DNA of 46,387 bases from Proteromonas lacertae. Taxonomy: Eukaryota. This document shows positions 3,001-32,104 of this stretch, one piece after another; positions within the stretch are counted from its first letter, which is position 1, and each line of letters opens with the position of its first letter. The notes below the pieces were generated by a model. The model had not been told where the DNA came from, did not search any database, and worked only from the letters and a program-made list of their open reading frames with translations. A program made the position numbers and the translations under genes. Location of the stretch: positions 1 through 46,387 of the forward strand of contig NGBS01000624.1 of assembly GCA_002245135.1 (NCBI GenBank), read 5' to 3'.

Positions 3001-3559
3001 GTATCATGGTAATAAGATAACTCTTGATGATAGTGTATTAGTTGAAGAGATTGAAAATAATATATTAGAAGTATTTATGAATCTGTTTGATGGTGATATC
3101 TATTGTAGTAATGATAATAAATACTGCTTAGTTCATTTAGCAACATTGAAGAATAGAGAAATGATTTACTTATTGAATAACTGTTTTATTCATGTAATAA
3201 ATGATCAACGAGAAGTATTGGATTGTGATGATCAAATAAAAGAATGTATATGTGGTTTGCAACAAATGGTGAACTTTAAAAGAATGTATTATATTACAGT
3301 ATCCAATAATAAATCGCCTGAATCTTCATCTGAATCCTCACCTTTTATATCAAAAGTATTAGTTTCACATTATATTGGTAAAACAACCATCGAAAATGCA
3401 AATATTACCTATTGTAATTCAAAATTTGAAGGTTTAGTATATGGAAGTGATTTCAAGATAGAAAAATCAAAAGATGTAACTGTAAAGTTTGATATAGAAA
3501 AGAAGAATAATAAAAAGAAAAAGAATATAAAAAGACTAAAAGCATTTGGATTGGTTTGA
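1..3559 (+). pseudogene. 3' part of the CR-NTPase effector gene, upstream tandem copy; frameshifted as assembled
   Basis: Same exons and introns as 6765-10325, with Walker A GNPGCGKT and YGNVPR. Several 1-2 nt indels, mostly in homopolymers, may be consensus errors. Confidence 0.7.
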
Positions 3560-4152
3560 ATGAGAAATATCATCATCTTATTTTCAAATATAAATTGTTT
3601 TGTTAGGAATTGTTTTTCAGGGATAAGTTACATCAAACCATTACAAGATTTAGCAAATTCATTTATACTCTATTTAAGAAAATATATGAAAAAATAATTT
3701 ATAACACAAATAGAAAAAATGAAAGAAATAAAGGAAAAGATTTTATTGTTAATACTAAAACACCGATTTGTGCAACAGCTAATAATAAAAAAATGGAAGA
3801 AAAACAAAATGAATTATTGACAAGTAATGAAGTTAATGTAAAGAAACCTAAATTTGGATGAGGAAATGCTGATTAAGAGAAATAATAATACTAAAACATC
3901 TTTCGATTGATTATATTTCTTCATACTATTCTATTTATGTTATTTTCAATAGAAAGGGTTTAATTTTAAAGTAATGGTTAGGTTTAGTATATTGCAAAAC
4001 AACAACTTCATTTGCAGCAAATGGATCATTAGAAAAAGAAATAAAAGGCTTGAGAGTTGCAAGCCAAACTTCCAAAGCAGAATTAATTGATAATGTTTGG
4101 ACGATTGTAACAGCAGAAAAACCAACAGAACATGTAAAAGAATACATTCCAA
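1..4152 (+). repeat. Tandem segmental duplication, copy 1 (5' end lies outside the window)
   Basis: Position 1 (cataaatcatatataatcg) matches 6765. Near-identity continues to gaatacattccaa at 4152/10919. Period is about 6764 bp. Confidence 0.97.
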
Positions 4153-5065: not shown

Positions 5066-8000
5066 ATATTGAAGAGTATAGTTATTACATTTTATTTAAT
5101 CTTATGGATTTCAATTATGTGATAAGGTATGGCAATATTGATAAGATTGAGTTGATGAAAAAGTGAAAATGAAGAAATAGTGTATTATTTAAACTATTAT
5201 CCTCAGATAAATAATACTTCTTGTTGTTATTTTATCTTAGTGAGAGATTGTTATGTAAATATTTATAACAGTATTAAAGATGTAGTAAAGAAAATCAAAA
5301 TAAAGGTAAGAATGAAGGTGATGGTAAGAAGAATGGTGAAGATGATAACAATGGTGAAGATGGGAATAATGGTGTTGGTGAGAATCAAAGTAAAGATGAG
5401 TATAGTGGTGAAGATGGAATCAAAGTAAAGACAAGAATAAAAATAAATATAAGAATCATCAGAATTGCTTTTTAATCTACGGCAATGAAGGTTTGGGTAA
5501 AACTACATTGTGTTTTTTTTTGTCGTATTGTCTTAATAATGATGATGATTTTGATGAATATAACATAGTAGTATATGGTGTAAGTGATACAGATAACATA
5601 TATCATTTTAGATTAGCAAATACTCATAAATTTGAAGAAAATATCTATATATGCCAGATTTAAAAGGTAAAACAATAGTTATAAGCGATAATGAACAGAT
5701 TCATGAAGATGATTTCAGTGATGATAATGTAATAATTATGATAAGTTCTCCAAAAGCAGAAAAATATAAGATTATGGCAAATAAGAGATGTACAATCCAA
5801 TTCTACATACCTCAATTCAATGAAAAGAATTAAAGATTATAATAAATCAAAAGAGAAATTAGATGATGATAAGAAAAAGAAAATATTAAATGATGCAGTT
5901 ATATATGGAGGCAACTTAGATATTAATTGTTCATTGAAAGAGTTATGTAAAAATTGTGAAAGGGAATTACCATTATATATTCCACCAAATTATGAAGAAC
6001 AGTTGTTTATATATGATACCAATCAATTTAATGTAATACCTGACACCTTGAGATATTTATCAACAGAAATGGAAAAATATATACTTGCAAATTGCTTTTA
6101 CAAAATAGTGGATTATAAAAGATTATATGAAGTATTTGAAAATGATTTATTGAATAAAAAAGATCCATGGATATTCGAAAGAATGTGTCACATTATATTC
6201 GAAGATAATGGTTATACAGGTTATAATTTAGATAAAAAAGAATTTCCATTTGATTTACCTGAACATACATTAATTTATATTGAAATGGATAAATTCCTTG
6301 ATTATCTTGATAATGGTGATAAATATAAGATTAAAAACCGAAAAATTAATGAAGTAACACTTGTGAGTGGTAAAATTAAAGATAAAAGTAATACTGAAAT
6401 AAAAAGTATAACAGAAGGAATAGTTGAAATAACATATAATAATGTAAGAGGAAAATATGATAGGATTGTTGATTGTGAAATAACAGGATTGACAATATCA
6501 AATGCAAAGATAGAAGGTGATAGAATTAGTGGTGTAATAAAAGATGGTTTAATATCAGAAGGAGTTATATTTGATGGTATTTATGTGGATTTTGGAAGAA
6601 TAATTAATTTTCCAGCAATAGATTCATGTATTATTAACAAATACAGTATTACTGGATTACAAATGACAATTTCTAATAATCATCCAACTAAGAATACTGT
6701 AATAGCATTTCTAAATGTATATATTATTATTATTATTATTATTGTATAGATGTTATATAGATATCATAAATCATATATAATCGATAATTTGAAAAGACTA
6801 AATATGAATGATAAAAATGATAAAGATATTCTTGCAAATGCGTTATATGATAATGGATATATCCCAGAGAATAAAAAGAAAGAGATAATAGATAGTATGG
6901 ATAAAGAAAAGAGAATAATGTGTGAGAGTTATGTATGATATTAATATTTATATAATTTTATAGTTTTTGATTAATGAACTTTATCGTAGGGGATATAATG
7001 AGATAAATGAAATATATGGTAAACTTAAAGATAGATATTTAGATGTTATTAATAGTGATACAAATACTTATAATAAATTGATAAATGATATTAATAAATT
7101 GAAAAATAAAAACCAACAATTGGAAAATAAAAATCAACCAAAGAATAGTAAAAGCAAAAAAGAAACTAGTGGTTCATCAAATGAAACATTAACTGAAGAA
7201 ATTGAGAAATTGGAAAAAGAAATTGAGAAATGGAAAGAAGAAATTCGTGATTTAAATGAACTTAATAAGAAGAATAAAGAAATAATAGAAAAAATAAAAG
7301 AAGCAAAAAATGATAATATAGATGAAAAAGAGTCTCCCATTAAAAGAAAAAGAAATAGCAATAAAGAAGTTGAAGAAGAGAATATAGAGGAAGATAAGGA
7401 AGCAGAAGATGAAGGAAATGAAGGAAATGATCAAGAAGATAAAAGCAATAAAGAAGCAGAAGATGAAGATAAACCAAATAAAAAGATTAAAACTATTGAA
7501 AATAATGAAGTGAATAATAATAATAATAATATTCCATCGAATGGAAATGGTGATAAACCACAGAAAACAAAAGGTAGTGATATCGAATCATCAATCCCTT
7601 ATAAAAGAAATAAACTTACTGATGATAAAGTTGTTAAAGAATTAACAGAGAAAAAAGAAATTGTTATTGATGACAGAATATTACATGACTTAGATGATTA
7701 TTTGATTGATGTAATATACCATGATAAGAAAAATAATAAAGAAAAAAAAGAGATGAAGAATGATATTATTACTGTATATATATTATTGTATTATTATTAT
7801 AGTCAATTAAAGAAGAAATAGATACACCAATAATTGATAATAATGTTATTATTGATAAGTTAGGAGAATGTAATCCAATATTTAATATTGTGTTTATTAC
7901 ATACAATCACAATGAAGTAACATCATCACTTGAAGAAGGTGAAACTGATTTTGGACATTATGGAATATTTAAAGATAAAATAATAGAAGAAATGAAGAAA

Positions 8001-10325
8001 ACTTACAAATGGGATGAAATGAAATCAAATGATAAAAAGAATGAGATGAAATCAAATGCTACAGGAAATGAACAAAAATCAAATTCCACAGAAAGTGAAA
8101 TAAGTTCTGCTGGTAAAACAAAAGAAACTGATAAATTCAAAAAATTAATAATGTCAATAAAATCGAAAAGATTAAGATTTTGTACTTATAACATGTCTGA
8201 TGAATTAAATGACTATTCAGTCTTCCAAAAGAATGTAGAAACATTACATATAGTTTTAGAAAATAGAAATGAAACTACAAATTTCATACTTACAGAATGT
8301 AGAAACCCATCAGTAAATATAATACCTTGTGAAATTGAAGAAAAAAAGATAGATTGTGATTATAGAATATGTGAAAAGATTATAAATAGAAAAATTGAAC
8401 AAACTAAAACTGAAGATAATTCAAATGATTCTATTGATATTAAATGGAAAAATCTGAATAATGAGTTTGTAATGGATGATAAAAATTCAGTAGTAGAAAA
8501 ATTTAATCAATATCTAACAAAGAATGATATAGAATCAGCAAAAAATAATTTTGAAATGATAAAGGAAAATATATCTACTTATATTAAAAATCGCTCAAGT
8601 ATATATATATATACATATATAATTATTATATAAATAATAGTGACTAACTCTTTATGTAAAGTATTTGGAAAATTAAGTCCAAAATACAATGATAGTGATA
8701 AAACTATAAAAATTTATTGTGATATATATCAATATCCTAATAGAATAGTTTATGTTAGAGATGTTTATAAGAAAATATGGAATGAATTACAGAAAGATAT
8801 TTCATATTATAGAAATAATCCAGATAAAAAATTAAGAATTCTATTGAGAGGAAATCCAGGATGTGGTAAAACTTCATTTGTTATCTATTTAATAAATCGA
8901 ATTATTGAATTAAATGAAAAATTGAAAGGCAAAAAGATTAGTGTATGTGTTCTTAAAGCGAAAACAAAAGATGATAAAATAGTTTGTGATGAATACTATT
9001 TAAAAGGTAAGGAAATGCTACATGATATAAAAAAACAAAAAATAGAATTTGATATTGTGATATGTGATTCTTATGATGTCGGAAAGGATGATCCTAAAGG
9101 TCGTATTTATTTATATGTCACTTCGCCAGATTCTAAGAATTATGAATCATTTACAAAATTTGCTAATGATGATGAGAATAGAGCAAAAAAGTATTTCTTT
9201 ATGGATATATTTAGTGGAAAAGAAATTAAAGAATGGAAAGAAAAATGTTTACCAACTGAACTGCAAGAATCAATAGAAAAAAATGAGTTTAATAGTAGAT
9301 ATGGAAATGTTCCAAGACATATCTATTATGCTGCAATATATGATGTTTGTTATGGTAAAGATTATTGGGATAAAATATATTCAAAAGGTATAAAAAGAAT
9401 AGTAGGTAAACTTGGTTATATGAAATTTCTAAAAACATATTTATATCCATGTAAGTCATATGAAGAAAATGAGAATTTAGTAAAAAGAACAACAACATTT
9501 GATAGTACATTATGTCATTATATAGTGAAGTATTCTATTCCCTATGTAGATGAGAATAAAATCAAATGTTATGATAGAATTAATGAACATGAGATGGAAT
9601 TCATATCAGATGAAGTATTCGATTATATTTATGATTGTGTTAAACATAAAGCTGTAGAAGATGATGTTAAGAATATGCAAGAACAATTTAGTGACTTATA
9701 TCAGAATAAAGTGAAAAATGAATTTATGTTATATTTATTCAAAGAGTTAGTATGGTATAACTGTTTGTATCATGGTAATAAGATAACTCTTGATGATAGT
9801 GTATTAGTTGAAGAGATTGAAAATAATATATTAGAAGTATTTATGAATCTGTTTGATGGTGATATCTATTGTAGTAATGATAATAAATACTGCTTAGTTC
9901 ATTTAGCAACATTGAAGAATAGAGAAATGATTTACTTATTGAATAACTGTTTTATTCATGTAATAAATGATCAACGAGAAGTATTGGATTGTGATGATCA
10001 AATAAAAGAATGTATATGTGGTTTGCAACAAATGGTGAACTTTAAAAGAATGTATTATATTACAGTATCCAATAATAAATCGCCTGAATCTTCATCTGAA
10101 TCCTCACCTTTTATATCAAAAGTATTAGTTTCACATTATATTGGTAAAACAACCATCGAAAATGCAAATATTACCTATTGTAATTCAAAATTTGAAGGTT
10201 TAGTATATGGAAGTGATTTCAAGATAGAAAAATCAAAAGATGTAACTGTAAAGTTTGATATAGAAAAGAAGAATAATAAAAAGAAAAAGAATATAAAAAG
10301 ACTAAAAGCATTTGGATTGGTTTGA
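5066..10325 (+). CDS. Crinkler/RHS-type effector: CR-NTPase + PD-(D/E)xK REase + charged coiled coil + second CR-NTPase (multi-exon; 5' end uncertain and frameshifted as assembled)
   Basis: NTPase 1: ILVRDCY, YGNEGLGKTT (~5478), IVISD, ISSP, YGGN, WIFERMCH. REase: NFPAIDS..GLQMTISNNHP (6606-6686). NTPase 2: VYVRDVY, GNPGCGKTS (8850), VICDS, VTSP, YGNVPR. Frame-restoring introns at 6717-6749, 6933-6963, 7774-7802 and 8599-8640. Confidence 0.8.
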
Positions 10326-10919
10326 ATGAGAAATATCATCATCTTATTTTCAAATATAAATTGTTTTGTTAGGAATTGTTTTTCAGGGATAAGTTACATC
10401 AAACCATTACAAGATTTAGCAAATTCATTTATACTCTATTTAAGAAAATATATGAAAAAATAATTTATAACACAAATAGAAAAAATGAAAGAAATAAAGG
10501 AAAAGATTTTATTGTTAATACTAAAACACCGATTTGTGCAACAGCTAATAATAAAAAAATGGAAGAAAAACAAAAATGAATTATTGACAAGTAATGAAGT
10601 TAATGTAAAGAAACCTAAATTTGGATGAGGAAATGCTGATTAAGAGAAATAATAATACTAAAACATCTTTCGATTGATTATATTTCTTCATACTATTCTA
10701 TTTATGTTATTTTCAATAGAAAGGGTTTAATTTTAAAGTAATGGTTAGGTTTAGTATATTGCAAAACAACAACTTCATTTGCAGCAAATGGATCATTAGA
10801 AAAAGAAATAAAAGGCTTGAGAGTTGCAAGCCAAACTTCCAAAGCAGAATTAATTGATAATGTTTGGACGATTGTAACAGCAGAAAAACCAACAGAACAT
10901 GTAAAAGAATACATTCCAA
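6765..10919 (+). repeat. Tandem segmental duplication, copy 2
   Basis: Near-identical to 1-4152 but with real substitutions (SIPYVDENKIKC vs SIPYKDRVNEIKY; RKIEQ vs RKSEQ). Confidence 0.97.
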
Positions 10920-10937
10920 ATATAATATAAATGCATG

Positions 10938-11158
10938 AAATCCTCTTTTATAGAGGATCCTCTTCTAAAAGAGGATTTTTAAATCCTCTCTGAAAGAGGA
11001 AAGAGGAAATATAAATTTTATAAAATCCTCTTATTGAAAAAGATGACAAATTAAAAATCCTCCATGCTAAACATAATATTATTGAAAAAATTAGAAATCT
11101 CTAATGATCAATTATTAAAAATTCTTCCTCCAATATGATACCATCATACTAGAGGATT
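10938..11158. repeat. Cluster of ATCCTCT-N5/6-AGAGGA(T) inverted motifs (chained hairpins)
   Basis: Hairpins at 10940-10958, 10957-10976 and 10983-11000, plus further TCCTC/AGAGGA half-sites up to about 11157. Confidence 0.8.
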
Positions 11159-11272
11159 ATAATTTTTTATGGGGGGGATGAAGGCGGGGTTGAGGACTAG
11201 ACTATAGTATAGACTAGAATAGACTAAAACAAAAATAAAAATATAGAACCAGTATATAATATTAGAGTAAAT

Positions 11273-12329: not shown

Positions 12330-15300
12330 ATGCAAGTAATTCCACAAAAGAGAAAATTAAAAACGGATATGAATGAAGTTAAGGTGAGACGTACTGAATT
12401 AAATGATAAGGAAGGAAAAGAAACATTTATTGAAAATGTAATATTGCAAGAGTTAGTAAATGGGGTTTATTATTACAAATTCCATATCAATAAGTTTAAT
12501 TACTGCATTTGTTTTGGTTATTACGATGATAATTCAAAAAGAACAGGTTATATCAAGTTATTAAGAGTTTTATCTGAAGTTATTATGCCAGACAATACAT
12601 CAATTTATATGCCAGGTATATTTGGAAAAGAAAATGAAGAATACGAACTAAAGTTTGATATGTATAAAATGAAATTGTCAATTAGACAAGGAAATGGAAT
12701 ATTTATGGTTTTGTTAGATAAATTACCAGAATCGGTTTGTCTATATGCTATAAAATATAATGATAGTGAATTTACAATAACTAGAAGTTGGATGGATGAA
12801 AAGATAATCATAAAGAGGTATAATTTTGATGTTAAAGATATTGATGATAGAAATATTGTTTATTTTAAAAAAACTGAAGATGATTTATATAGAACAGAAA
12901 ATAGAGATAAAGATTTTATAATTCAGTATGTTGTATGTAATGAGATGTTTAATGATCAATATTATATAATAAATGAAATAATGGAACAAGGAATTTTTCA
13001 TTTCTATTATGACATAATAAATATTAATGATAAAGGTATTATTTTTGGCTATGAAAACACTCCAATCATTAAAATAAGTAATTCACCAGAATTACGTGAT
13101 AATAATCAAACAATAGATGGAATATTGAATATTTATGGTAAAGTAGGAGAAATATATGAAATAATATATGATATGAATGAAAAGAAGATGTTTTTTAGAA
13201 AAGGAAATGGCAAAGAAACCCAGATAGAAACAGATTTAAATACTCCAATTCGCCCATATATTAATGCCATCAACAGTTCAGTAAAATTAATAGAATACTA
13301 TATAGAAAGAGAGAGAAATCAATTATATCATATCACTGATTTCTGTTATTATGATGTTCAGTTAAATGATGATATAGTTGTTTTAAATGGAGTTAGATTT
13401 AATGATGGAGTTGTATTAAATGGAGTGAAATTACCAAATAATGTATTTGGCATTTACAATTACAGAAAATATTGTGTGATGGAAAAGTTATCACTTATAA
13501 ATAGTTATGCAGTAATTGATGTTGATAGATCTGCAGCTGTCGAAAGAATAAAGGACGATATAAATTCATTATTTATTACAAATAAAAACCAAAAGAGCTA
13601 TTTAAATGAAAGTAATAATATAACAAATTTGATAATATTCTTAAACTGTTATGGTGATGAGAATATAATTCTAGATATTCCAGATAGTTTTGTGAATGTA
13701 GTGAATAATTTATATACTAATGAGATTAATAGATTGAATGAAAAAGGTGAAATTATTAAACAAAAGATGTATTTAGAATTTAGAAATTCAAAAGTATTTC
13801 AATTTCCTAAAAGCAGAATCTATATCAGGGATTGCTACTATGAAATGTTTCGTGATATTTGTAAGATCATATCATCTAATACAATACCCAATATTGTAAT
13901 AACAGGTCAGCCTGGTATTGGTAAAACATCGTTTATATATGTTTTATTATACTTTTTAAAGATTAATTTAGACTTTAATCTTGAAGCAGATGAAGATGAA
14001 AAGAAATATTTACATCTAGAAGAGTTAAATATTGAAGAAGAGAATATTAGAAGTTTGATTCTATTAATAAACGCCCAGAAGAATGAAAAAATACAATCAT
14101 TTAACAAAGAAATAGGAATGCTTCAGGAAGGTATAAAAGAATGTTTAGAAAAGATTGAAACATGTGAAGAACAATTTAATCTGTATTATGAAGATCTGAA
14201 GAGTATAATTGATGGTAAAGAAACTACTCAGAAATATTATGAAGTAAAAAGTAAAACATATGAGTATAATGTAGATGGTGAAAAGAAAATAATACAACAA
14301 TCACATGTGCAAAAAATAGGTGAAATAATTGATGATACTATAAAGAACATCTAACAAATCATAGACTTAGGAAAAGAAATAAATAAGAAGAAGTTGGGTG
14401 ATTATATAGAAATGTTGAAACATATTAGTGAGAGTTTAAATAATGATGAAAAGATTTTGAATGATTATGCATGTAGATTTAATAATGATCAGGATAATTT
14501 AAAAAATAAAAAGGAAGAATTTAGAAGTGATATGGTGGAATTATTAGATAGAATAATAAGCAGTTGTGTAATATCATCAAATATAATTACAATCATTAAA
14601 GAGATTCTTCAACTGAATGATTCAATACGTATAAATGATAATAGAATAAATAAATATGAAGAGGAAAAAAAAGAAACGAATGTAATTAGAGAAACATTAT
14701 TAGAAATAGTGAATTGTTCATTACAATCAAAAACAGAAGAAATAAATAAAGTTGAAAATGAGGCAAAAGAGGATGATTCATTGATATTAAATATGAATAA
14801 AATAAATAAAATACAAAATAATAGAAAATATGGATTTAATTATTATCTGTTAGATGATATATGGAAAAGAAACAGTAAAATGTTTAAAGATATTTATGTA
14901 GTAAAGGGAAAGAGATTTGGATCAATCATTGATAAGAAAATATATTTATTGAAAGATGGATATCTCTGTAGGGTTGATATAGAAGGAAGTGATATTAATA
15001 ATTCGATAATAATAGTTGACACATTTAATGCGGATTTTGGTGTTAATAACATAGTAATATCAATTAGTTCGCCTGATAGTCATAACAATGATAAATATAC
15101 AAATACATACAATAGAATGTTATATTTTGATTCATTAACATTTGCTGAAATTAAAGAGTGGTTCGAAAACTGCATAAATATTGCTTATAGGGATATTGAA
15201 GAATTTGAAGAGATATGTAAAAATTATGGTAATATACCTAGACAAATATATTATCACTATTTATATAATAAAAACTATGGTAAAGATTATTGGGAATATT

Positions 15301-17705
15301 ATCAACAGTTGATAGAAAGTGTGGTAGGAACAACAGGATATAATGATTTTGTAGAACAGTATTTGCATAAAGATAAAATAATATCAGATGGTTTATCCAA
15401 TATTATATTAAAATATGATTTAAATAGATTATGGGATAATTATTTAAATCATTTTGTATTAGAACCGAAAGACAGATTAAAATTCGTTTCAGAAGAAGTA
15501 GAAAAATATATCATTTATAAATTCAAACCACCTGAAAATGATGATGATTATGGTAAAGTTAATGAGAGTTATAAGTCAATGGGTGATGATGATAATAATA
15601 TGAAAAGAATGGCATTAAAACAAGTTATTGCATATGAATTAAGTACTGGTAAGATTCAGGTGAATAATATAATTAAAGATGATAATTTCGATTTAGATCC
15701 AGAAAAACAAGTGTATTTTCATCGTCCTCCAAATGCATTGAATTTTGTTTATTATATATTGGATGAAAATAATTTCTTTGATTTGATAATGAATGGAGTT
15801 TTTATAAAAGTGTTATTAGATGATGATAATAAATTTGATAAGAAAAAAATAACAGATAAAATTAGAACAAAAATGGAAGATTCAATAAGAGTATAAATAT
15901 ATTTCATGTATTTTTATCATATAGGAATATAGTGTTAAGAAAGAAGGAGATTTTATGTATTGTGTAATACAAAACAGAGTAGTAGATGTTTATGATAAAA
16001 AATTCCATTTAAATGCTGTATCAAGTGATGAACAACAACCAGAAGAAGCAGAATTTCCACCAATAGAAGAAAAATTTGAAGTATATAATGATGGTAATGA
16101 ATTCCTATTAATGAGAAAATGTTTCAATCAAATGTGGGATATTATTAAAGAAGATAATTTTGTTTTTGTACACCAAAGAAATTTTTTAATATTTGGTTAT
16201 TCTAAAATTGGTAAAACAGTATTAGCCAAAATAATTAGAGATAAAATTCATAAAGAAAAACCAGGAATTCGTATATATTTTAGACACAAAGATGGTCAAT
16301 CATTTGATGATAAATATGACTATTTTTGTTGTAGAAAAGCTAATCCATATATTGTTATTGTTGATGGATTTGTTGTTGGTGAAGATGATTATTCTGATGC
16401 TGAAATGATTATTGTGTTAGCTAATGCATATGATAATCAGTATAAAACATTTCAAAGTAAAAGATGTCCTTTGATAATGTATATACCTCCATTTACACTA
16501 GCAGAAGTTAATAAAGTAGTATTATTGAAAAATCCAGAACTTAGAAAAGAAAATGAGGGATTTATAGAATATAGTGTAATAAAAAAGATAATACCTTCTA
16601 AAATAGAACAAGAAACATATAAAAATAAACAGAAATTATATCTCAACAATTATAAATATTATGGAGGTATAATAGGAAATTATACATATGATCAACATAG
16701 AATTAATCAAATAAGAATAGATAAAACAATTATTGAAAATATGATGAAAGGTATAAATACATCATCACTTTCAAAGAATGATTATAAAGACATATTTATA
16801 TATGAAACAGATGATAATGATGTAACTAAATCTGGTAATCTTCGATTTATAACTCCAACAATTAGAGATATAAAAGGTAAAGGCGTATTGACTATTAAAG
16901 ATAATGTAGATTGTAAATACAAGATTGATATTTTAATCAAAAATCAATTTTAAATAGATTGAAAAAGGTGGTTTAGCTGGATGCTTATATGAGATAATTA
17001 TTTTGTATAAGATGAAGAATTATCCTAGATTTATAGAAGATGTTGTTAGAAAAATGTATGAATTAATTGAAAATAGAATACAAAGTAATAGAAATTTAAG
17101 TTATTTAAGAGATTTAAGAGATTTATTAAAAAGAAAATTAATAGTAAGTAAAGAATTTAGTGATGTAAAAAATGAAAATGAATTAAAAAACATGCAAAGT
17201 TAAACGAATTATATATAAGTGGTAATACGATAAGTGATATAAATCCATTAATTGATAGTATAAACAAATATAAATGTTTAGAATACTTATGTATGTGTGG
17301 AGAAGATATAAAATATGAAGATATAACTAAATTATTAGATAATATATCGAAGTTAGATAAGTTTAAAAGAATGAAATTTGATAGTATGTACATAATTTAT
17401 AATTATTATATGTAGAAATAAAATTAAGTAAATGCGAACTTATTGACTTAGAAAAGAAAGTAGAAGAATTGAAGAAAGATGAAAAAGAGATTATAATAGG
17501 AGAAGTAATAGATAATATAGAAGATGAAGATAAATTAAAATATAATATAGAATATATACAATCATATCGAAGTGGATTTATGTATGGATTTTGTGGTTTA
17601 AGTTATGAAGATAATTACTATATGTATGATACTAAAGAAAGTATAAATGGATTTTATGATGGCTATGATGATGGTCAAGAATATAAAGAAGAAAGTTTAA
17701 ACTAA
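12330..17705 (+). CDS. SPRY-like x2 + CR-NTPase (coiled-coil insert) + second CR-NTPase + short LRR region; one in-frame TAA (14352) and one frameshift (~17190), so possibly a pseudogene
   Basis: NTPase 1: IYIRDCY, GQPGIGKT (13905), IIIVD, ISSP, YGNIPR. NTPase 2: LMRKCF, GYSKIGKT, IVIVDG, YIPPF, YGGI. LRR-like LNELYISGNTISD at ~17200. Introns at 15891-15924, ~16906-16957 (donor uncertain) and 17384-17415. Confidence 0.75.
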
Positions 17706-18399: not shown

Positions 18400-19830
18400 A
18401 ATACTTTCTTCTATATTCAGCTATTGCATTTTGAGCAATTGAGCCTTAATCTTGACCTAATGAAATACTAAATAGTTTCTTAGATACATTTTATCAGCTA
18501 ATTTCAATAATTCATTCATTGGAGCAGCATCTGGAGATAATACGAAGATTAATGCAGCACAACAGTTAGAATCATTATAGCAAGCCATTAAATCACTACT
18601 TGGAATTTCAATGAATTTTCTACCATTAATTCATCAATTTCTGTGATTGGATCACTACTGAAATAAATAGCTTCCCCTTTTTCTAATTCCTTCTAAAATC
18701 GAACTATAAACTTCTCCATTCCTTGAATCTTTGATAAACCAATTATTTCATTCCAACTTTTATCACTTAACCATTTTGGTCCTTTTGTTACTGGATTGGA
18801 TTCTTTTAATGTCAAAGCAGTATTACCTGTTAATAAATATTTAAAGGCAGCTGGATCTAATTCAATATTGATTAACAATATCTTTGTACATAATAAGAAC
18901 GAGAATAATAACTTATCTTTTTCAAATAAAGATCGACATACATTCTCATCTAATATATAACTGAATGTATTATTCAAACTATTCAATCGATCTCTGATTT
19001 TATTAGTTCTTACAGCTTTATCAATTGATAATAAGAATAGATTAATATACCAATCCAATGAATATTGGTTTAATACCAGTTAAATCAGAAATACAGAAGA
19101 ATAAAGCTGATGCTCTTTCTGCGACTGGAATATAACTTGTTCGAACATGGGATATTTGTTGTTGTGTTGCTTTGGCACTCTTTACAGCTACCATAATCTC
19201 ATTGGAGGTTTGTTTGGATTTTCATATGATCTTCTAATATATCACCTTCAGATGAAGCTAATATTCGTCATCTTTCATTACCAATTCTACTCTTCTTTCT
19301 TCTAATTCTCTTTGTTCTTTTCCTACTAATATACCTAATAATTGATCTTGTAAACCTTCTTGAGTTGTCATAAAGTTCAATAAATTCACTTTTACACAAG
19401 TTTCAGGTGGATAATGTGGATTTTTAATCATATCATTATATATAATCGAAATTTTTCATCATAATTTACTGTATTATCATCTAACAATTAGCTTGTCCTT
19501 GAGGATCTATCATAAATGGCCATCTATCTGGATTTCTTAATATTATGCCATTCTCTTATGGCTATTACATCTCCTAATATAATAACTAATGAATAACTTG
19601 TAAACTAGCTCAATAATCAGTCCATCGACTAGTTTTTCTAAATCTTCTTTCTTTTTTATTATGTTTTCTAATTCTTCTTATAAGGGACTTGATCAACTAA
19701 TTCTTTCAATTCTACTTGTTTAATGGCTAATTGACCTTCAGTTTTTGTATTTGTAGTTTGAGCTTTTTCTAAGGGTTCTATCTTTGGTACTATTACTTCC
19801 TTAATATCATAATATCTCTTGTTATTATTA
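18400..19830 (-). pseudogene. Axonemal dynein heavy chain remnant (stalk to AAA6) with stops and large internal deletions
   Basis: RWPFMIDPQGQAN, NPHYPPETCVKVNLLNFMTTQEGLQDQLL, NVCRSLFEKDKLLFSFLL, WLSDKSW, CYNDSNCCAALIFVLSP and SISLGQ. The closest pattern is inner-arm DNAH3/7-like. Confidence 0.9.
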
Positions 19831-20125
19831 TAAATAGTTATTTAAACAAATCATCTGATTATGAAACTATTTACAATATCATAAATCCAATAATATAACA
19901 CATTAATTGACTAATTATTTCTTTAAAATTCTTTATATTTATAATACATAAACAAAATGAATGTTTGAAAAGAGATTTGATTGAATGGCTTGATTTGATT
20001 AATGAAACGGACAAAAACATTTAGTTATAAACCATTTTTGTTTATATCTCATCAGTAATCACTTTTACGACCATTATTATAGTATATATTTATTAATTGA
20101 TTAAATAGGTGACGGTTTAATCTAT

Positions 20126-21853
20126 ATGGGTTTACTAGGTAGTAAAGAAAGTATGTTATATGAAAAGGTTAGTAAAGAGAAAGGAAGAATGAAGTGTATA
20201 GATAATCCAACAAGCTTCATATATCAACAAGAAATTTCTAACAATGTTTATGTTGTTGAGTATAGAATTACAAAGATAAAAGAAGAAATGTTCTTAGGAT
20301 ATTCAGAAGGATGTGATGAGAAGAAAAATAGAGTGGCTGTATTAACCAATAATTGTGTTAAATATGGTGAAAAAAAATATAAATGTGAAGGTCTATTATG
20401 TGATGGAGAAGTATATGAAGTAAAATACAATATGTATGAAAAGAAAATATCAATAAAAAAGAAAAGAAGTGAAAATATAGCAAGTATATATGTGAATGAT
20501 ATGCCAAATACTATATATCCATTATTTTCATTGCTTGATAAAAATGATGAGATTAAAATCGAGAAATGCTATAAAAAAGATGCTGTAAAGAGAGTAAGAC
20601 CACCAAGTGATGTTGGTGGAATAACAAAAAGACAAAAAACTGAAGATATATCTGAGAATGGTGTTTATGCTGAATTGTATGAGAAGAATGATGAGAGTAG
20701 TTTTGATCAACCACCAAGTGTAAGTTCAAAACCAGTTCCACCACTTCTTTCTTCTGCTAAGAATCATCCTCAAGTTGAAGATAGAAGCAGCTGCAAAGAA
20801 GGAAATTATGAAGATATAATTAGTATGATATACAAAAGGGCAAATAGTTTACAGTTAAGTGAGGATGAATTACTGGATATTATAAGTCGTTTACGTCTAG
20901 ATAGTGATAAAGGTGGTGATAGAAGTGATGCATTATTCTCAAACAATACAAATATTCCAATTTCTTTTCCATTAGCAGGTATTGCTATAAATGAAGAAGA
21001 TGCTTTCATCAGAATAGTAAATTCTTTAAAATTAAATGTAGATAATGGTATAGAGTTGTTAGAGTTTGATGAATCTGTAAATGTATTTCAATTCCCCAAA
21101 AAGAGAATTCTTATTAGAGAATGTTATAAACAAATGTTTAGACATATTTGTTTATTATTATCAAAAAATCCTCGACAAAATATAACAATAGAAGGACAAC
21201 CAGGTATAGGAAAGACTTCCTTCATTTATGCATTATTATACTTTTTAAAGACAAATTTATGTAAAGAATATACTGAAGAGCAGAAGAATTACTTAAAGAT
21301 TCAAGGATATACACATGAAATGGCTGTCATGGATGAAATAATAAGAAAATATGATAAAGAAAATGAACCAAAAATAAGAAAATTGAATGAAGAAATTGAA
21401 AATTTAACAAAAGAAAACAATAAAAAGAATATAAATGAAAATGATATTACAGAAGTAAACAATATTTGTAAAGATTTGAAAAGTATAACAGAAGATATAT
21501 TTGGATATGATAAATTCATTAATGAGAATAGAATTAGATGTGATAGCATTATGAATAGTTTTAATAACGATAACAATAGAGTTATAAAACATTGTAATGG
21601 TAAGATTATACAAAAATTGAACGAAATTATAGAATTATTATTACCATCAGGAAGACTTAGTAAATTCCTTTCTTCAAAAGATGTTACCATCGATGTAAAA
21701 AAAATAGATGAATATTGTTGTTACATTATGAATGAAGATGATAGACTTAATACATTAAATAAAAATCAATACAAGGATATGACATTGGTTGGATATGCAT
21801 TGATAAGTATAATATTAGATAAATTAAATGAGATTAATAAAATATTATTATAA
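20126..21853 (+). CDS. Truncated paralogue of the 12330 gene: MGxxxS N-terminus + SPRY-like domain + N-half of CR-NTPase
   Basis: VFQFPKKRILIRECY..GQPGIGKTSFIYALLYFLK is nearly identical to the 12330 gene. The ORF ends within the coiled-coil insert, before Walker B. Confidence 0.75.
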   Translation: MGLLGSKESMLYEKVSKEKGRMKCIDNPTSFIYQQEISNNVYVVEYRITKIKEEMFLGYSEGCDEKKNRVAVLTNNCVKYGEKKYKCEGLLCDGEVYEVKYNMYEKKISIKKKRSENIASIYVNDMPNTIYPLFSLLDKNDEIKIEKCYKKDAVKRVRPPSDVGGITKRQKTEDISENGVYAELYEKNDESSFDQPPSVSSKPVPPLLSSAKNHPQVEDRSSCKEGNYEDIISMIYKRANSLQLSEDELLDIISRLRLDSDKGGDRSDALFSNNTNIPISFPLAGIAINEEDAFIRIVNSLKLNVDNGIELLEFDESVNVFQFPKKRILIRECYKQMFRHICLLLSKNPRQNITIEGQPGIGKTSFIYALLYFLKTNLCKEYTEEQKNYLKIQGYTHEMAVMDEIIRKYDKENEPKIRKLNEEIENLTKENNKKNINENDITEVNNICKDLKSITEDIFGYDKFINENRIRCDSIMNSFNNDNNRVIKHCNGKIIQKLNEIIELLLPSGRLSKFLSSKDVTIDVKKIDEYCCYIMNEDDRLNTLNKNQYKDMTLVGYALISIILDKLNEINKILL

Positions 21854-23215
21854 ATTTGGTTATGATATTGCAAGTAAAGATTTTCAAAATTATAATAAAG
21901 ATCATGTTTATGGCTTAGCAATGATTTTAGCTGAACAAGGGTTATTAAATGTATATCTATATTATTATTTATTTTATAATATATATAGGAATCATCAAAT
22001 CTATTTCAAATAATAAAAGAATCCATTCGAGAAGTTCCATCTTCTTATTTCAATCAAGCAATAATCATGAGAGCTCAAGGTAAAACTCAAGATTCAATCG
22101 AAGCAATGAAAAGTTATATAAAACGGTTTAATAATCCAACGAATTATGAACCATATTTATACTTAGCTCGTGCTTTATATGATAATAAGCAGTTTAAAGA
22201 GTTAATAACAATTTATACGAAATGTATTCAAATGGATCCTACTGTATATATATGTCTAATATATTGTTATATTCATTCAATAGAATATAAAATTATGGTA
22301 TATTTTAGCCATTGCTCATACTCAATATGCTGCTTTTATTATCACAGTTGAGAAAGTTCATATGTTAGAGTTTGATGAAGTGAAAGGTGTATATCCCTGT
22401 TGTGGTAGAGAGAAAGGTGAAGAAGGATGTACAACAAGTAGACAACGTACAGTTCAAGAAGTAGCTTCTGCAGTACACTCAATGATAACAGCCAGAGATT
22501 TATTCCAATGGTTATATGATGAATATGATACATTTCCAAATCCACCTTATCAGAAGAAAACAGCTGAAGCTTATTTCAACAGTTGTTCTCAAAATATTGA
22601 ACCAGCAAAAGCACATCTTGATTATGAAATAAAACAGAATGAACAATTATTTAGAGAATAACAGATTTATTTGACATTAGAGAAAGAAAGATAAGCTCAA
22701 AGAATCGAAAAAGAAGAAGAAGAAAAGAGATAAAAAGAAGAAAGAAGAAAAGAAGAACACAAAAAAGTGATGATAATAATGAAAGAAAAAGTCGAAAAAG
22801 AAATAAGAAGTATAATTATATTATATTATTTATTTCAATTAGAGAATCAGTGAATAAAGATTATGACGAGATATTTGGAGATGAAGATGAGATAATAACA
22901 ACCTCCAAAAAACAAAAGAGAAGAAAAGAGAAGAAAGGAAATGAATCATCTGAAGAAGAGAATGAATTATTAACAAGTGATGAAGAAGAAGATGATGATG
23001 ATAAATTAATAACGACAGTTCAGAAAAGAAGATTAGTAAAATCGAATACAACTACATCTGCTGCTTCTAATGAAGCAGTAAAGTCAGTTCTAGTATTCTC
23101 TGATGATGAAAATGATGAGAAGTTAATTCCAGTTCATAAACCTGAAGTTAATAATGAAAATAATAATGTGAATAAGAAGGTGGAAGATAAAAGTAATGTA
23201 GATAAGAAGATTTAG
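21850..23215 (+). pseudogene. CTR9-like (Paf1 complex TPR protein) 3' fragment
   Basis: GLAMILAEQG, PYLYLARALY, RTVQEVASAV..ARDLFQWL and an acidic/basic tail. Introns at 21951-21988, 22244-22283 and ~22810-22842. In-frame TAA at 22659; no 5' half. Confidence 0.7.
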
Positions 23216-24559: not shown

Positions 24560-25740
24560 TTAATCAGTTGCTTTTAATGAAGATCTTTCTTGATGAGATG
24601 TCTTTACAACAAGTTCTCTTCTGTTGATTATTGCATAACCAACTAAACTAATAATAATCAAAGTACCAATAACTACACCATAAGAAATACCAATTGCTTC
24701 TCCAGTCTTACTAGCTGATCTGGTTTGTGGTTATTCATAAATATCAGTTTGTCTTACAATAACAGACGAATAAGCTATATCAGGAGAAGAAGAATGTAAA
24801 TCATTTTCAAAAGCATCAGATTTTAAGATATTCGATGTAATTGAGATTATTGTATTTCGATAATTCTTTGGAGCAGTAATAAATGCAACTGTTCTTACTA
24901 AATTTGATGTCATATCCATATTATCTTTATCCCAATCTAATCTCACATTCGTTCTATCAACATCAAATGAAACTGCACTTCTTAAATGAGTTATTAATAG
25001 ATTTATAATTATCACAAATGCTTGAGGATTTACTGCTTGACCAGATACACCAGTTGTATAATCGATTTCTATCTTGACAATTATTCTTCCATTTACTAAT
25101 GGAGGATCTTCTACATATTCTCTACAATCTGTATCATCTACAGATTGCCATTGTGGATTTAAGTAATTATCACCTCTATATTGTCTTTGAAGAATACCTG
25201 TCTTTCCATCTTTACATAATATATAAGCAGAAGTTGCTGGCCATTCGCCATTAGCTGGACATGTATTGGAAATGATTTGAAGATAAACATTTGTGTAATA
25301 AATTCCATTAAGATTCCTTTATAATGTTTCTTTCATTAATTCAGATGGTCTTCCACTGAATTTACCTTCACTGAATGTTATACCAGCTGGTAAAGTAGGA
25401 TAATCAGGTAAAATTCATTCTAATACATTATATTTAATATTTGGTGTTAAATCTTCTTCTCCCCAAACTGGTTTAGAATCTAATACTGTACATGTTCTAT
25501 AGGAATAACCCATATAACCTTCACTACAAGCTATTTGACCTCTTTCACCTACATTCGTTGCTGGATAACCATTTTCTGCACTACATGTTGATGCAATTAC
25601 TTCCAATTGGATTGTATATGTCTTTGTTGTTTGATCTCTTGCAACTATACCAGTTATTGTGTAAGTCATTAATTTTCTTGTTACTGAAGGAGTTCCTGTT
25701 ATTGTACCAATCTTATTTACATATAAACAATACCTTTTAA
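24560..25740 (-). pseudogene. Type I membrane surface protein remnant with He_PIG (putative Ig) and HRM-like Cys modules
   Basis: GTPS..YTIT, CSAENGYPATNVG..CSEGYMGYSYRTC..WGEED, LPAGITFSEGKFSGRP, CPANGEWPAT and a C-terminal TM (GEAIGISYGVVIGTLIIISLVGY). Several frameshifts. Confidence 0.7.
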
Positions 25741-25880
25741 CACTATTACTAAGTACTTATTCATTCACATAAATCATTTACACAAACATCTCATATCACA
25801 TATAATTCATCATTTTATATTTCTTTCATTGGTTTCTCACACTCTCACTATTCTTTTCTTTCTAACAGTCTCTACATGCT

Positions 25881-26458
25881 CATATCATTTCATCCAACAT
25901 TCTATTATTATATACATCAAAAACTACATACACTTATTTTCATTATTCAATAGATTGAAAATCAGAAAATTCTAAAAATTTCATCAAGCCAAATGATTAT
26001 TCAAACCCAATAAACAAAGAAATGCTATTTTTGTGCTTACTATGAAGTATAATGGTGAAATGATGTGTATTTCGATGATGATGATAATGATGAAATATGT
26101 GACTATGTATAGAATAGATGATAATATTTGGTATAATATTAGTATTACATAAAATGAAAGATAAAAAAGTATAATCTAATGTTTAATGTTTAATTGTAGT
26201 ATAGTGATTCAAAATTGTATATAAGTTGTATTTGAACAGTTTAAAATCTGTGTATGATAAAATGAATATGATGTGAGTGTAAGTGTGATGAATATATGAT
26301 TGTGTAGAGTAATAAAAGTGAAAATAAGAATATATTCGAGAAAATTCTGAGAAAAGAATCAAGCCAAATATATTTTAAGAATATTTTATTTATAAAAATC
26401 AAGATGAATAAATGTATGTTGAAATATAGTGAAAAAAATGATATAGAATTGTATATGA
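25881..26458 (+). repeat. Long inverted repeat A, left arm
   Basis: Reverse complement of 29135-29712 with very few mismatches. Confidence 0.93.
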
Positions 26459-26625
26459 TAAATTTACATTAATAGTATTTTGAAGTTGCTTATTATTTAA
26501 ATGTAGAGAGTATGAATATTAATGAAATAAATTCTTTAGAAATAGATAGAATAATTTATTTTGAAAAATGAAATGTGAAAAATGTGTTAATAATAAATAT
26601 ATGAATAAAAGAGTTGTATGAGTAA

Positions 26626-27670
26626 ATGTCTAGATATTATTGTTTGTTCATTTATTTATTCCAATTTTACATATATTAAAAACAATAAAGTCAAATAATA
26701 GAAAATATACAATTGCTGATAAAAAGAACAACCCTTACAATACACCTCCAATATATTTTTCAATTTATTCTGAAAAACATAAAGAATGGGTAAAAGGTTT
26801 ATTAAATAATACAAAAAGTCGAAGTTTAGTGTATTATCAACATCCAAGTGGTGGAATGGGAAATAAATTACGAACTCTTGTTGGAGTAACATTTTTGGCA
26901 ATGATGAGTGATAGAGCAATATTGTTACAGAATTGGAATACTTTTGATTCATATTTCTCAACTCCACTTTCAACAATTCATGTTCCTAGTGTTATTAATA
27001 ATGGTAGAAGATATTTTGATTATATAACCTGTTTTAATGAAAATCAACTTAAAGAAATATCAACAATAAATGATGATCATTTGAAATTTTTAACATGTTG
27101 TGATTTGACTGAATCATTTATAAAATATGGTAATTTTGGTAATAAACTCAAGAATTCTGGATTAATAACTGAAAGATCAAAGAATATTATTTATAAACAA
27201 GCAACTGAAATAAGACATTTTTTATATAAATTCTTCTTCAAACTATCAAAATTGGTCGAAAATGAAATAATGAAAATAACAAATAAATTCTCAAAGAATA
27301 AATTATTGATAGGATTTCATTTTAGAACAAATCACAAAGGATGGAATGATAGAGGAGTGACATTTTTAAATAATCACCAAATAGAAGAAGCAATTCAAAA
27401 TGCCACAAAAATATCAAAGAAATTGAAAAATGTAGAATGGTATATTTCAAGTGATGATAATGAGATATAAATGAAATATAAATCAAAAATATCCTGAATA
27501 TGTTGTTAATGATATTCATGAGAAAGTTCATTCCAGAGGATCTGCTTCAAGAGTAACAGATGGATTTATATATTCTGTTGTTGAAGCTCATATATTATCA
27601 GAATGTAAAATATTGTTTTTAACATCATCTAGTTCATTTAGTGGAATTGCTTATTATAAATCTAAATTAT
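26626..27670 (+). pseudogene. Fucosyltransferase-like (NodZ/GT11/GT23/GT37 fold), disrupted
   Basis: GGMGNKLR, GFHFRT, WYISSDD, EAHILSEC..SSSFSGIA. Stop plus frameshift at ~27468-27490; start region out of frame. Confidence 0.8.
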
Positions 27671-27677
27671 CTATATA

Positions 27678-28216
27678 TGAATTTTTAGATAAGAAAGAAA
27701 TTATTTGTAAAGTTTGTAGAATTATATGGATGTAATTAATGTTTATTATTTCATCATTCCAAAACAAATTTGTCCTTATAGAGTAGTGTGTGAAATAGTT
27801 GAAAATAATAATAAAAATTCAATAAGTAATATGTTGAATTACTGTCGACCTAAATATTGATGTGAATCTAGAACCATAACAAAGATGGTTATGATAAAGA
27901 TTTTCAGTTTACAATTATTTATCTATTATATTATACAAAACACAATTTTGCTGTGACATATTTCACAGGTCATAATGCTAGTAGTATAATTAAATCAGCT
28001 ATAAAGGCTTTGAAAGACTATCCATTCTCGTCAAGAAAAACAGCTGGTGTGGCAGTATATGCTAAAAAACATAGAAACAAAAACAAGATAATAGAATTAA
28101 TAAATAATTACTTGAATGTTGATAAATATGGCTCAGCATTCAATAATCCATATCCAAAAGATAAAATTGATTTGCTTAAAAAATATAAATTTTGTATAGC
28201 AATAGAAAAATTATGA
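27678..28216 (+). pseudogene. GT10 alpha-1,3-fucosyltransferase-like fragment
   Basis: VDKYGSAF..KIDLLKKYKFCIAIE resembles the GT10 YKFxLxFEN motif. Internally deleted relative to 30123-30568. Confidence 0.7.
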
Positions 28217-29134
28217 TGAAGTATAAAGTTACAATTAAAAATAATGGTAAAATATAAAGAGTGTGTATATTGGACAAAATAATATAGTAAAAAATGGTAT
28301 AATTGATTAAAATTTGATAAAGATGATAATATAATTAAAATTAAAATTAATTTATTTGATTATTTAATTTTATAAAATTAATTCAAAATCAAGAAATTTC
28401 TAGAAAACAATCAAACCAAGTTAACTATAAAAATAATTTATCAAAATCAAGCTGAAATAATGAGGATAAACATCCTTTTATTTTCTTAATAATTTACAAT
28501 CAAAATGAATCTTTATATAGAATATTATTCAATGAATTAGAAAGGTATAGAATAATTCACAATAAAAATTGGCTAGGTGAGGGAACATTAGAATTTGATA
28601 ATGGTATAAAAGACATTTTATAGCTTTAACAGCAATTTTTTTTAAATCAAAAGCATTAAAAGAAGATTATTATGTTGGTGAATTTACCATTACTAATGAT
28701 GATATTTATTATTCAGTTAATAATGTAATAATACATCCATCAAATAACAACAATAGAAATGAAATAATTGATGAAAATATTTATGATAGATTGATGAAAT
28801 ATCGTGATGAAATTGGTGGTATAGAAATATATTATTTGATAGCAACAAATGATGAAGTAGAAAAGAAAATCATATTTTATCTAAAGAATTAAATTAAATT
28901 CTTTAAATCCCATCACAGAAATCACACAAACAACTTTGATCATCACATAAATCTAACATAACAGTTAGAAATTTGTCAAACAATATCATCTATACTATAC
29001 GTATTTAAATTTCATATTATTATCATCTAAATACATTTCATTTCAGCAATATAGTTCATAATAACCACAAATAAAACATTTCTTTATTTCTTGGCTTGAG
29101 ATATATTTGGGATTGAATTTTCATTATAATTTCA

Positions 29135-29712: not shown

Positions 29713-29742
29713 TTGTATATAACACTCTTACTACTCTTATCC

Positions 29743-29945
29743 AAAATTGTATGTAAGTTGTTTTTGAACAGTTTAAAAGCTGTGTATGATGATAATATCA
29801 TAATGTGAATATGGTGTGAGTGTGAATGTGATGAATATATGATTGTGTAGAGTAATAAAAGTGAAAATAAGAATATATTCGAGAAAATTCTGAGAAAAGA
29901 ATCAAGCCAAATATATTATAAGAATTTTTATTTTATTTAAATCAA
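29743..29945 (+). repeat. Third, partial and more diverged copy of repeat A
   Basis: Matches ~26210-26405 (tgaacagtttaaaa..gagaaaattctgagaaaagaatcaagccaaatata). Confidence 0.85.
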
Positions 29946-30568: not shown

Positions 30569-30625
30569 CATCTTTCTATTATAATCATCATGATTTTTGT
30601 GAAGGAACAAGAAAAGTACACTATA

Positions 30626-32085: not shown

Positions 32086-32104
32086 AAAGATGTAAATTTA
32101 GCTC

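What the first reader, a model, noticed from the sequence alone, without database searches (positions are those of the whole stretch)
12330..17705. SPRY-SPRY-NTPase-NTPase-LRR: an NLR-like architecture built from CR-NTPases
Seen: two beta-rich SPRY-like headers and two P-loop modules. In an unannotated frame after ~17190 there are LRR-like repeats (KLNELYISGNTISDINPLIDSINKYKCLEYLCMCGEDI). No clear REase motif is present. Known: SPRY and LRR are ligand-sensing domains in TRIM/NLR receptors, and CR-NTPases are related to STAND/AAA+ NTPases. Inference: a convergent intracellular immune-sensor design in a protist.
Basis: partly seen in the sequence, partly recalled or inferred. Interest (0 to 1): 0.7.

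Follow-up and report, generated by a model that had tools for sequence, protein, structure and literature searches.

The report
SPRY-headed Crinkler-type NTPase mosaic gene
Near a chromosome end of an AT-rich protist lies a gene, broken in this assembly, that joins two likely SPRY binding domains, two ATP-binding modules, a likely dead nuclease remnant and only about three leucine-rich repeats, so it is likely a reshuffled Crinkler/RHS-type conflict gene rather than a true NLR immune receptor.

Summary
The observation largely holds. One codon-bias path runs 12330-17705 through six pieces, split by two well-fitting introns, one probable intron, an in-frame TAA (14352) and a frame change at an A-run (17185). 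The two N-terminal repeats are homologous (0 of 2000 shuffles); SPRY rests on ESM Atlas only (0.95, low recognition value), not Pfam or the fold. Both P-loops are real. The LRR frame is coding but holds about three repeats (LRR_4 E 2.9e-4, below cut-off). A neighbouring gene carries the same two NTPase subtypes in the opposite order with an intact-looking nuclease motif set; a second SPRY-NTPase half-gene lies 2.4 kb downstream, fused to a foreign gene piece. NACHT and NB-ARC were not matched. Best reading: a subtelomeric, recombination-built CR/RHS-type mosaic with a new (SPRY) header, recently disabled or mis-assembled, likely a non-secreted ATP-switched scaffold without its own nuclease. 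No intact full-length relative or RNA was found. New variant of a known kind; interest 0.4.

The parts
12330..17705 (+). Whole mosaic gene, about 1750 codons in six coding pieces; broken in this assembly
   Evidence: continuous codon-bias path; piece lengths
12378..12809 (+). SPRY-like repeat 1
   Evidence: homology to repeat 2 and to 20177-20593; Atlas SPRY 0.95 for both repeats together; no Pfam hit
12906..13328 (+). SPRY-like repeat 2
13791..13970 (+). NTPase 1, N-half with Walker A (13905-13928)
   Evidence: nSTAND3 E 3.4e-4, AAA_16 E 5.7e-4, both under cut-off; dN 0.23, dS 1.87 over 60 codons against 21080-21259
13971..14831 (+). 287-residue helical (coiled-coil-like) insert between Walker A and Walker B
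   Evidence: absent from paralogues in alignment; no proline, heptad signal; modelled as helical hairpin; shared in part with 21260-21850 (4 of 1000 shuffles)
14352..14354 (+). In-frame TAA inside the insert
   Evidence: the only covering intron candidate examined (14320-14364) is unlike six reference introns in donor, GC and T content
14832..15590 (+). NTPase 1, C-half: Walker B strand (15003-15017), sensor strand, GxP helix module (15225-15242), winged-helix-like region
   Evidence: 28% identity to 8868-9698, E 1e-21; AAA+/STAND-type fold matches Z 8-9; Atlas RHSP/CRN clusters
15591..15890 (+). Degenerate REase-like module (helix, three strands, helix), catalytic residues not recognisable
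   Evidence: covered by family profile; secondary structure at low confidence, pLDDT under 50; REase label rests on position and recalled motifs
15891..15924 (+). Predicted intron, 34 nt, keeps frame between pieces
   Evidence: GT..TAG, GC 0.15, like reference introns
15925..16905 (+). NTPase 2 (Walker A 16195-16218, Walker B 16351-16365); same subtype as the first NTPase of the upstream gene
   Evidence: 0 of 1000 shuffles for both motif regions against 5445-5746
16906..16957 (+). Probable intron, donor uncertain (16906 or 16913)
   Evidence: donor and T content less typical than the references
16958..17185 (+). Helical piece that begins like the first helix of a CR-type REase module (16967-16993), nuclease core absent
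   Evidence: coding bias; motif likeness recalled, pairwise test against the neighbour not significant (86 of 1000 shuffles)
17185..17190 (+). Frame change at a run of six A
17200..17383 (+). LRR stub: one full and two partial repeats (cores at 17200, 17278, 17362)
17384..17415 (+). Predicted intron, 32 nt, keeps frame between pieces
17416..17705 (+). Last exon: charged helix and Tyr/Gly-rich tail, stop at 17703-17705
5412..10325 (+). Upstream paralogue: NTPase (type of NTPase 2), REase with intact-looking motifs, coils, NTPase (type of NTPase 1), degenerate REase; also frame-broken
   Evidence: REase motif reading recalled
20105..21853 (+). Downstream paralogue half: one SPRY-like repeat, NTPase 1 N-half, part of the insert, then a TPR gene piece

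Best explanation
The locus is one mosaic gene with two homologous, likely SPRY-fold headers, two P-loop NTPase modules likely of the Crinkler/RHS (CR) type, a likely inactive nuclease remnant and a three-repeat LRR stub, likely assembled by subtelomeric recombination and either very recently disabled or mis-assembled. Shown: the module order, the breaks, the insert, the paralogues with the same modules in other orders, purifying selection on the NTPase 1 N-half. Inferred mechanism of an intact copy: it has no signal peptide or membrane segment, so it would stay inside the cell; the SPRY pair would bind a protein ligand, the AAA+/STAND-like modules would switch and oligomerise with ATP, the 287-residue insert would project as a stalk, and, having no working nuclease, the protein would act as a targeting or regulating subunit for nuclease-bearing family members rather than as a self-contained receptor. 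The LRR stub is most likely a captured fragment that replaced the nuclease core after NTPase 2.
For: Single coding path with equal codon bias in all 6 pieces. NTPase halves close into one AAA+/STAND-like domain around the insert in the model (residues 7-500 align to NB-ARC Z 9.3, rmsd 6.0, 170 aligned; Cdc6/Orc1 Z 9.0, rmsd 7.4, 193; TnsC Z 8.7, rmsd 6.1, 205). Atlas neighbours of the NTPase 1 C-half are eukaryotic clusters including RHSP (0.92, 17% of members) and CRN-named ones (0.85, 0.84). NTPase+HTH+REase is the typical CR core and headers vary (PMC5289972 section 11). Same two NTPase subtypes in reverse order upstream; SPRY+NTPase half-gene downstream. Three Logan relatives at 36-40% identity share the NTPase plus degenerate module. 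Telomere repeats at 45755-46387; neighbours are fragments or duplicates. RHS genes are subtelomeric, mosaic, over half pseudogenes and nuclear (PMC7563717 passages). Highest 19-residue hydropathy 1.67. One stop is expected per 0.3% neutral divergence, so any decay is recent.
Against: No Pfam RHSP, RHS_N or Crinkler match for any window piece or for the 3 Logan relatives scanned. Both Atlas queries had recognition values (2089, 2087) under the 2300 level below which a high score is weak evidence. The REase-like part of the model is under pLDDT 50 and was not reached by the fold search; pairwise likeness of it to the neighbour's REase is marginal (48 of 1000 shuffles). Fold Z-scores do not separate CR from NB-ARC, ORC or TnsC and Foldseek gave nothing at E 0.001. 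No intact full-length relative was found and no expression data exist here, so the working mechanism is untested.
Confidence: 0.5

Rival explanations
1. A dead subtelomeric chimera: pieces of several CR genes and an LRR gene were joined by recombination and the whole never worked as one protein.
For: In-frame stop not explained by a typical intron and a frame change; the flanking dynein piece carries many stops; the downstream paralogue is a half-gene abutting a TPR gene piece; no full-length relative.
Against: Only one stop in about 1750 codons; introns with normal signals keep the frame across two junctions, one of them inside the LRR-tail part; dN/dS about 0.12 in the NTPase 1 N-half; two near-identical copies of the neighbour differ by seven 1-nt indels at or beside homopolymer runs in 4.15 kb, which points to sequencing error as a source of breaks in such genes. 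Seven distal ORFs with 73 runs are unbroken (chosen because long), so errors are not general.
Confidence: 0.25
2. A convergent NLR-like immune sensor: SPRY and LRR read pathogen ligands and switch the tandem NTPases into a signalling oligomer; the breaks are assembly errors.
For: SPRY, STAND-like NTPase and LRR are all present; SPRY serves as recognition module in fish and fungal NLRs; SPRY header recurs on a second paralogue.
Against: About three LRRs; no NACHT or NB-ARC match beyond the P-loop; Walker B reads hhhhD-T and hhhhD-G-F, not the NB-ARC or NACHT forms (recalled consensus); no effector domain; sensor domains at the wrong end compared with NLR-B30.2; LRR seen on no paralogue; frame broken.
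Confidence: 0.15
3. Two adjacent genes: SPRY-SPRY-NTPase-REase-like ending at 15896, and a separate NTPase-LRR gene behind it.
For: The first frame has its own stop at 15894-15896 and a methionine lies early in the next frame; the donor at 16906 is atypical.
Against: 15891-15924 matches the organism's introns and joins the frames exactly; no room for an intergenic region; the upstream paralogue also carries two NTPases joined across predicted introns.
Confidence: 0.1

Closest known systems
CR (Crinkler-RHS-type) proteins, NTPase+HTH+REase class (Zhang et al. 2016, as summarised in PMC5289972 section 11; original not held)
   Same: Variable header, P-loop NTPase, helical module, REase-like C-part; multi-copy, recombining
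   Different: Header is SPRY-like, not Ubl, helical or Myb-HTH as in the section read; two NTPases; 287-residue insert in the first; nuclease degenerate or replaced by an LRR stub; no Pfam CRN/RHS match
Trypanosome RHS proteins (Pfam RHSP PF07999)
   Same: Subtelomeric, mosaic, pseudogene-rich family with an NTP-binding module (PMC7563717 passages); Atlas neighbour at 0.92
   Different: No RHSP match by HMM; no retroelement inserted in the gene; different headers
Fish NLR-B30.2 and fungal SPRY-NLRs
   Same: SPRY joined to a STAND-type NTPase, with repeats
   Different: There the NTPase is NACHT or NB-ARC, SPRY is C-terminal, repeats form a full domain and an N-terminal effector exists (PMC4852459, PMC12258605 passages)
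AAA+ or ABC ATPases with long inserts (HslU I-domain, SMC/Rad50; recalled)
   Same: Helical insert between Walker A and Walker B
   Different: Unrelated clade; here relatives carry a similar insert at another site, before Walker A (P0003, P0004)

Membership tests
CR (Crinkler-RHS) NTPase-REase proteins | AAA+/STAND-related P-loop NTPase followed by helical module | tested here: met
   motifs, model and VIA matches Z 8-9 to NB-ARC, Cdc6, TnsC; clade not resolved
CR (Crinkler-RHS) NTPase-REase proteins | Match to CRN/RHS family profiles | tested here: inconclusive
   no Pfam RHSP/RHS_N/Crinkler hit; Atlas neighbours RHSP 0.92 and CRN 0.85 with low recognition; the CR-NTPase profiles of Zhang et al. 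are not available
CR (Crinkler-RHS) NTPase-REase proteins | REase-fold domain after the NTPase | tested here: inconclusive
   collinear module covered by paralogue profile; model under pLDDT 50; motif reading recalled
CR (Crinkler-RHS) NTPase-REase proteins | Catalytic REase residues in this gene | tested here: not met
   by inspection the acidic and QxT-type positions seen in the neighbour (5745-6746) are absent after both NTPases; consensus recalled
CRN effectors of oomycetes and fungi | Ubiquitin-like LxLFLAK header | tested here: not met
   no Pfam Crinkler hit; N-terminus is two beta-rich repeats
NLR | NACHT or NB-ARC domain | tested here: not met
   Pfam: NACHT E 0.19 over 16 residues only, NB-ARC not listed at E up to 10; shared fold alone is common to the clade
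NLR | C-terminal repeat sensor domain | tested here: not met
   one full and two partial LRRs; LRR_4 under cut-off
NLR | N-terminal effector or signalling domain | tested here: not met
   N-terminus is SPRY-like; no TIR, CARD, HeLo or enzyme hit in Pfam
NLR | Ligand-induced oligomerisation and immune output | not testable with these tools
   needs bench work
SPRY/B30.2 domain | Match to PF00622 or SPRY-clan fold | tested here: inconclusive
   Atlas first hit 0.95, 172 shared features, 24 of 30 hits in SPRY or Neuralized sets, recognition under 2300; no HMM hit; fold pLDDT 33.6, all-beta, Foldseek uninformative

The most novel reading that the evidence does not exclude
This protist has rebuilt receptor logic from Crinkler/RHS parts: SPRY-headed, nuclease-dead CR-NTPases act as sensors that co-oligomerise, through shared NTPase subtypes and long helical stalks, with adjacent nuclease-active CR proteins as executors, with subtelomeric shuffling swapping sensor domains (SPRY, LRR) onto the scaffold. 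That would be a sensor-executor immune system independent of NACHT and NB-ARC.
Probability: 0.1. Interest if true: 0.8.

Novelty: new variant of a known kind. Interest (0 to 1): 0.4.

Why it matters
CR/RHS proteins are large, poorly understood families of eukaryotic conflict genes. A SPRY header was not among the headers in the review section read and no paper joining Crinkler, SPRY, LRR and NTPase terms described such a protein in the listings (the primary classification paper could not be read, so it may be known there). If intact copies exist, a ligand-binding header on a nuclease-dead CR scaffold would support an intracellular sensing role for the family rather than secretion, and would show STAND-like receptor design reached from a basal NTPase clade. 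As it stands it is one broken copy in a fragment-rich subtelomere.

Tried and rejected
No genome is held for this window, so paralogues outside 46 kb could not be sought. No sequencing run was listed. No relative of the 674-aa N-terminal piece among proteins of 370-1180 aa; none of 1060-3025 aa for the NTPase profile (810-1059 aa not covered by either NTPase search). The all-protein HMMER search never ran (queue full, 10 of 10 tries). Locus searches found no relative in viral, metagenome or prokaryote contigs. PDB sequence searches gave no SPRY or REase match; one search gave only weak Clp/AAA+ hits. PHROGs, NCBIfam and PADLOC gave nothing above cut-off. A phage tail-spike hit to repeat 2 (E 7) was not SPRY by Pfam; plasmid and second phage searches were empty. 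Viral fold library uninformative; the wide fold search of the SPRY model never ran. REase families were not listed in the fold search, whose rows covered residues 7-513 only. An intron over the stop (14320-14364) and one over the frame change (17165-17199) were considered and judged unlikely by composition; leaving out the first did not change the paralogue alignment score (53 both ways), so that test is inconclusive. A stop-reassigned code was rejected because other genes end in TAA and have long stop-free frames. The first run of the insert alignment used a wrong frame and was redone. Earlier-findings look-ups returned nothing.
Full report
Setting. The window is 21-32% GC, ends in 105 TTAGGG units (45755-46387) and has short AT-rich introns (six reference introns from neighbouring genes, predicted from frame changes: 29-42 nt, GTAT donors, TAG acceptors, GC 0.07-0.17). 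A remnant of inner-arm axonemal dynein (best PDB hit DNAH12, E 1.5e-26) points to a flagellated or recently flagellated protist; the taxon was not determined. The focal gene lies about 28 kb from the telomere repeats among duplicated and fragmentary genes.

Gene structure. Six stop-free pieces tile 12330-17705. A codon model trained on 4140 codons outside the gene follows one frame at a time through all of them; each piece scores 0.22-0.36 per codon against -0.6 to -1.05 in the other frames. Two junctions are typical introns that keep the frame (15891-15924, 17384-17415), one is a probable intron with an uncertain donor (16906 or 16913 to 16957), and two are true breaks in this assembly: TAA at 14352-14354 and a frame change at the A-run 17185-17190. 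Whether these are errors is open. The two copies of the upstream duplication differ by seven 1-nt indels at or beside homopolymer runs, 9 substitutions and one short divergent patch in 4.15 kb, a pattern typical of long-read error (own knowledge); but seven distal ORFs with 73 such runs are unbroken (selected for length), the dynein piece has many real stops, and a stop is a substitution, not an indel. One stop is expected per 0.3% neutral divergence, so the gene is intact in life or only just dead.

N-terminal repeats. Repeats 1 and 2 and the header of the downstream paralogue are mutually homologous (scores 90, 90, 69; 0 of 2000 shuffles each; alignment). ESM Atlas ranks SPRY clusters first (0.95, 172 shared features; 18 SPRY, 4 SPRY plus Neuralized, 2 Neuralized and 6 unnamed among 30 hits), but the recognition value of 2087 is below the level at which the tool calls a high score strong. 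Pfam, PDB sequence search and an unaligned fold (pLDDT 33.6, strands almost throughout) neither confirm nor refute it. SPRY is likely, not shown.

NTPase 1. Walker A is at 13905-13928; the Walker B strand is about 1.1 kb later. Alignment to the upstream paralogue and to Logan relatives shows a 287-residue insert right after the Walker A helix, proline-free with heptad signal. A model from 7 sequences with the stop read as X (mean pLDDT 49.6; NTPase strands mostly 65-80) closes the two halves into one domain with the insert as a helical hairpin. VIA-align matches residues about 7-500 to NB-ARC (Z 9.3), Cdc6/Orc1 (9.0), TnsC (8.7) and other P-loop proteins, all tied, and the insert to generic coiled coils; Foldseek found nothing at E 0.001. 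This shows an AAA+/STAND-type fold without naming the clade. Atlas neighbours of the C-half are unnamed eukaryotic clusters, an RHSP cluster (0.92, 17% of members) and CRN-named clusters (0.85, 0.84), again at low recognition. Three Logan proteins (36-40% identical to the upstream paralogue, E 5e-45 to 1e-39, of 5239 candidates) share the module; two of their clusters carry a long helical insert at a different site, before Walker A (P0003, P0004). The N-half evolves under purifying selection against its paralogue (dN 0.23, dS 1.87, 60 codons).

REase remnant and NTPase 2. A profile of four paralogues and relatives, the focal gene left out, matches 14355-15893 over positions 33-397 of 430 (E 1e-28 among 824 window ORFs), so the region after the helical module is collinear with the family's C-terminal module. 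By position and recalled motifs this is a degenerate REase; the upstream gene has an intact-looking one at about 6150-6690 (motif reading recalled, no database match). The model of this part is below pLDDT 50. NTPase 2 belongs to the subtype of the upstream gene's first NTPase (0 of 1000 shuffles for both motif regions). After it the frame begins what looks like the first REase helix, then turns into an LRR stub: LRR_4 E 2.9e-4, cores 26 and 28 residues apart, only the first complete, best PDB matches to short bacterial-type LRRs over one repeat. No other window piece matches the stub.

Family context. Upstream: NTPase II, REase, coils, NTPase I, degenerate REase. Focal: SPRY, SPRY, NTPase I with insert, degenerate REase, NTPase II, LRR stub. 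Downstream: SPRY, half of NTPase I with insert, then the 3' part of a TPR gene. Three orders of the same modules within 17 kb is what recombination in a subtelomeric family produces; trypanosome RHS genes are mosaic, about 30% subtelomeric, over half pseudogenes, and nuclear (PMC7563717, passages).

Comparison. CR proteins join a variable header (Ubl, helical, Myb-HTH) to NTPase+REase or other enzymes (PMC5289972, passages and section 11; PMC11342252 and PMC6131194, passages); CR-ATPases are basal kin of STAND (PMC8195603, passages). The primary paper (Zhang et al. 2016) and its supplements were not held and may list SPRY fusions. SPRY on STAND NTPases is known in fish and fungal NLRs, at the C-terminus (PMC4852459, PMC12258605, passages). 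The gene fails the NLR tests that could be run (domain type, repeat domain, effector) and fits the CR plan with inconclusive profile evidence.

Mechanism. Shown: order, breaks, insert, paralogues, no signal or membrane segment (highest hydropathy 1.67). Inferred: an intact copy would be an intracellular ATP-switched scaffold whose SPRY pair selects a protein ligand and which, lacking a working nuclease, would target or regulate nuclease-bearing relatives (0.5). Rivals: never-functional chimera (0.25), convergent NLR-like receptor (0.15), two genes (0.1).

Verdict. Interest 0.4.

Noticed in passing
window 1-4152 and 6765-10919: Tandem duplication, 99.5% identical, covering the 3' part of a CR-type gene and the start of an EF-hand gene; copies differ mostly by 1-nt homopolymer indels.
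   Followed up: yes
window 5412-10325 (+): CR-type gene with two NTPases; its REase with intact-looking motifs carries a beta-rich insert of about 90 residues (about 6290-6560) between the first helix and the catalytic strands; broken by frame changes near 5643 and elsewhere.
   Followed up: partly
window 20105-23215 (+): SPRY-NTPase half-gene runs straight into the 3' exons of a TPR gene (TPR hits; CTR9-like by recall), a chimeric junction near 21850.
   Followed up: partly
window 18400-19840 (-): 1.4-kb fragment of an inner-arm axonemal dynein heavy chain with many stops and frame changes.
   Followed up: partly
window 25881-26466 / 29127-29712 and 32097-32568 / 33492-33963: Two long inverted-repeat pairs (586 and about 470 nt, 99%); the first encloses a glycosyltransferase-like ORF and a 96-aa ORF (28602-28889) weakly matching the family's C-terminal module (E 1e-3); no clear target-site duplication seen.
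   Followed up: partly
window 26634-45724: Dense cluster of single-exon glycan-modifying genes: UDP-GlcNAc 2-epimerase (E 3e-90), FkbM methyltransferase (E 4e-10) and several glycosyltransferase-like ORFs not scanned, up to the telomere repeats.
   Followed up: no
window 24570-25760 (-): Membrane-anchored surface-protein-like gene with Cys-rich and Ig-like stretches (label recalled, no Pfam hit) and in-frame stops at about 25417 and 25321.
   Followed up: no
P0003, P0004 (Logan): Relatives carry a helical insert of about 200-270 residues before Walker A, whereas the focal gene has one after it: independent insertions into the same NTPase family.
   Followed up: partly
window 17550-17702 (+): C-terminal tail with two Tyr/Gly-rich motifs spaced like short helical repeats; no family hit.
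   Followed up: no
window 10920-11230: The duplication ends abruptly inside the EF-hand gene and is followed by a stretch rich in short inverted repeats and a G-run, possibly a mobile-element end.
   Followed up: no
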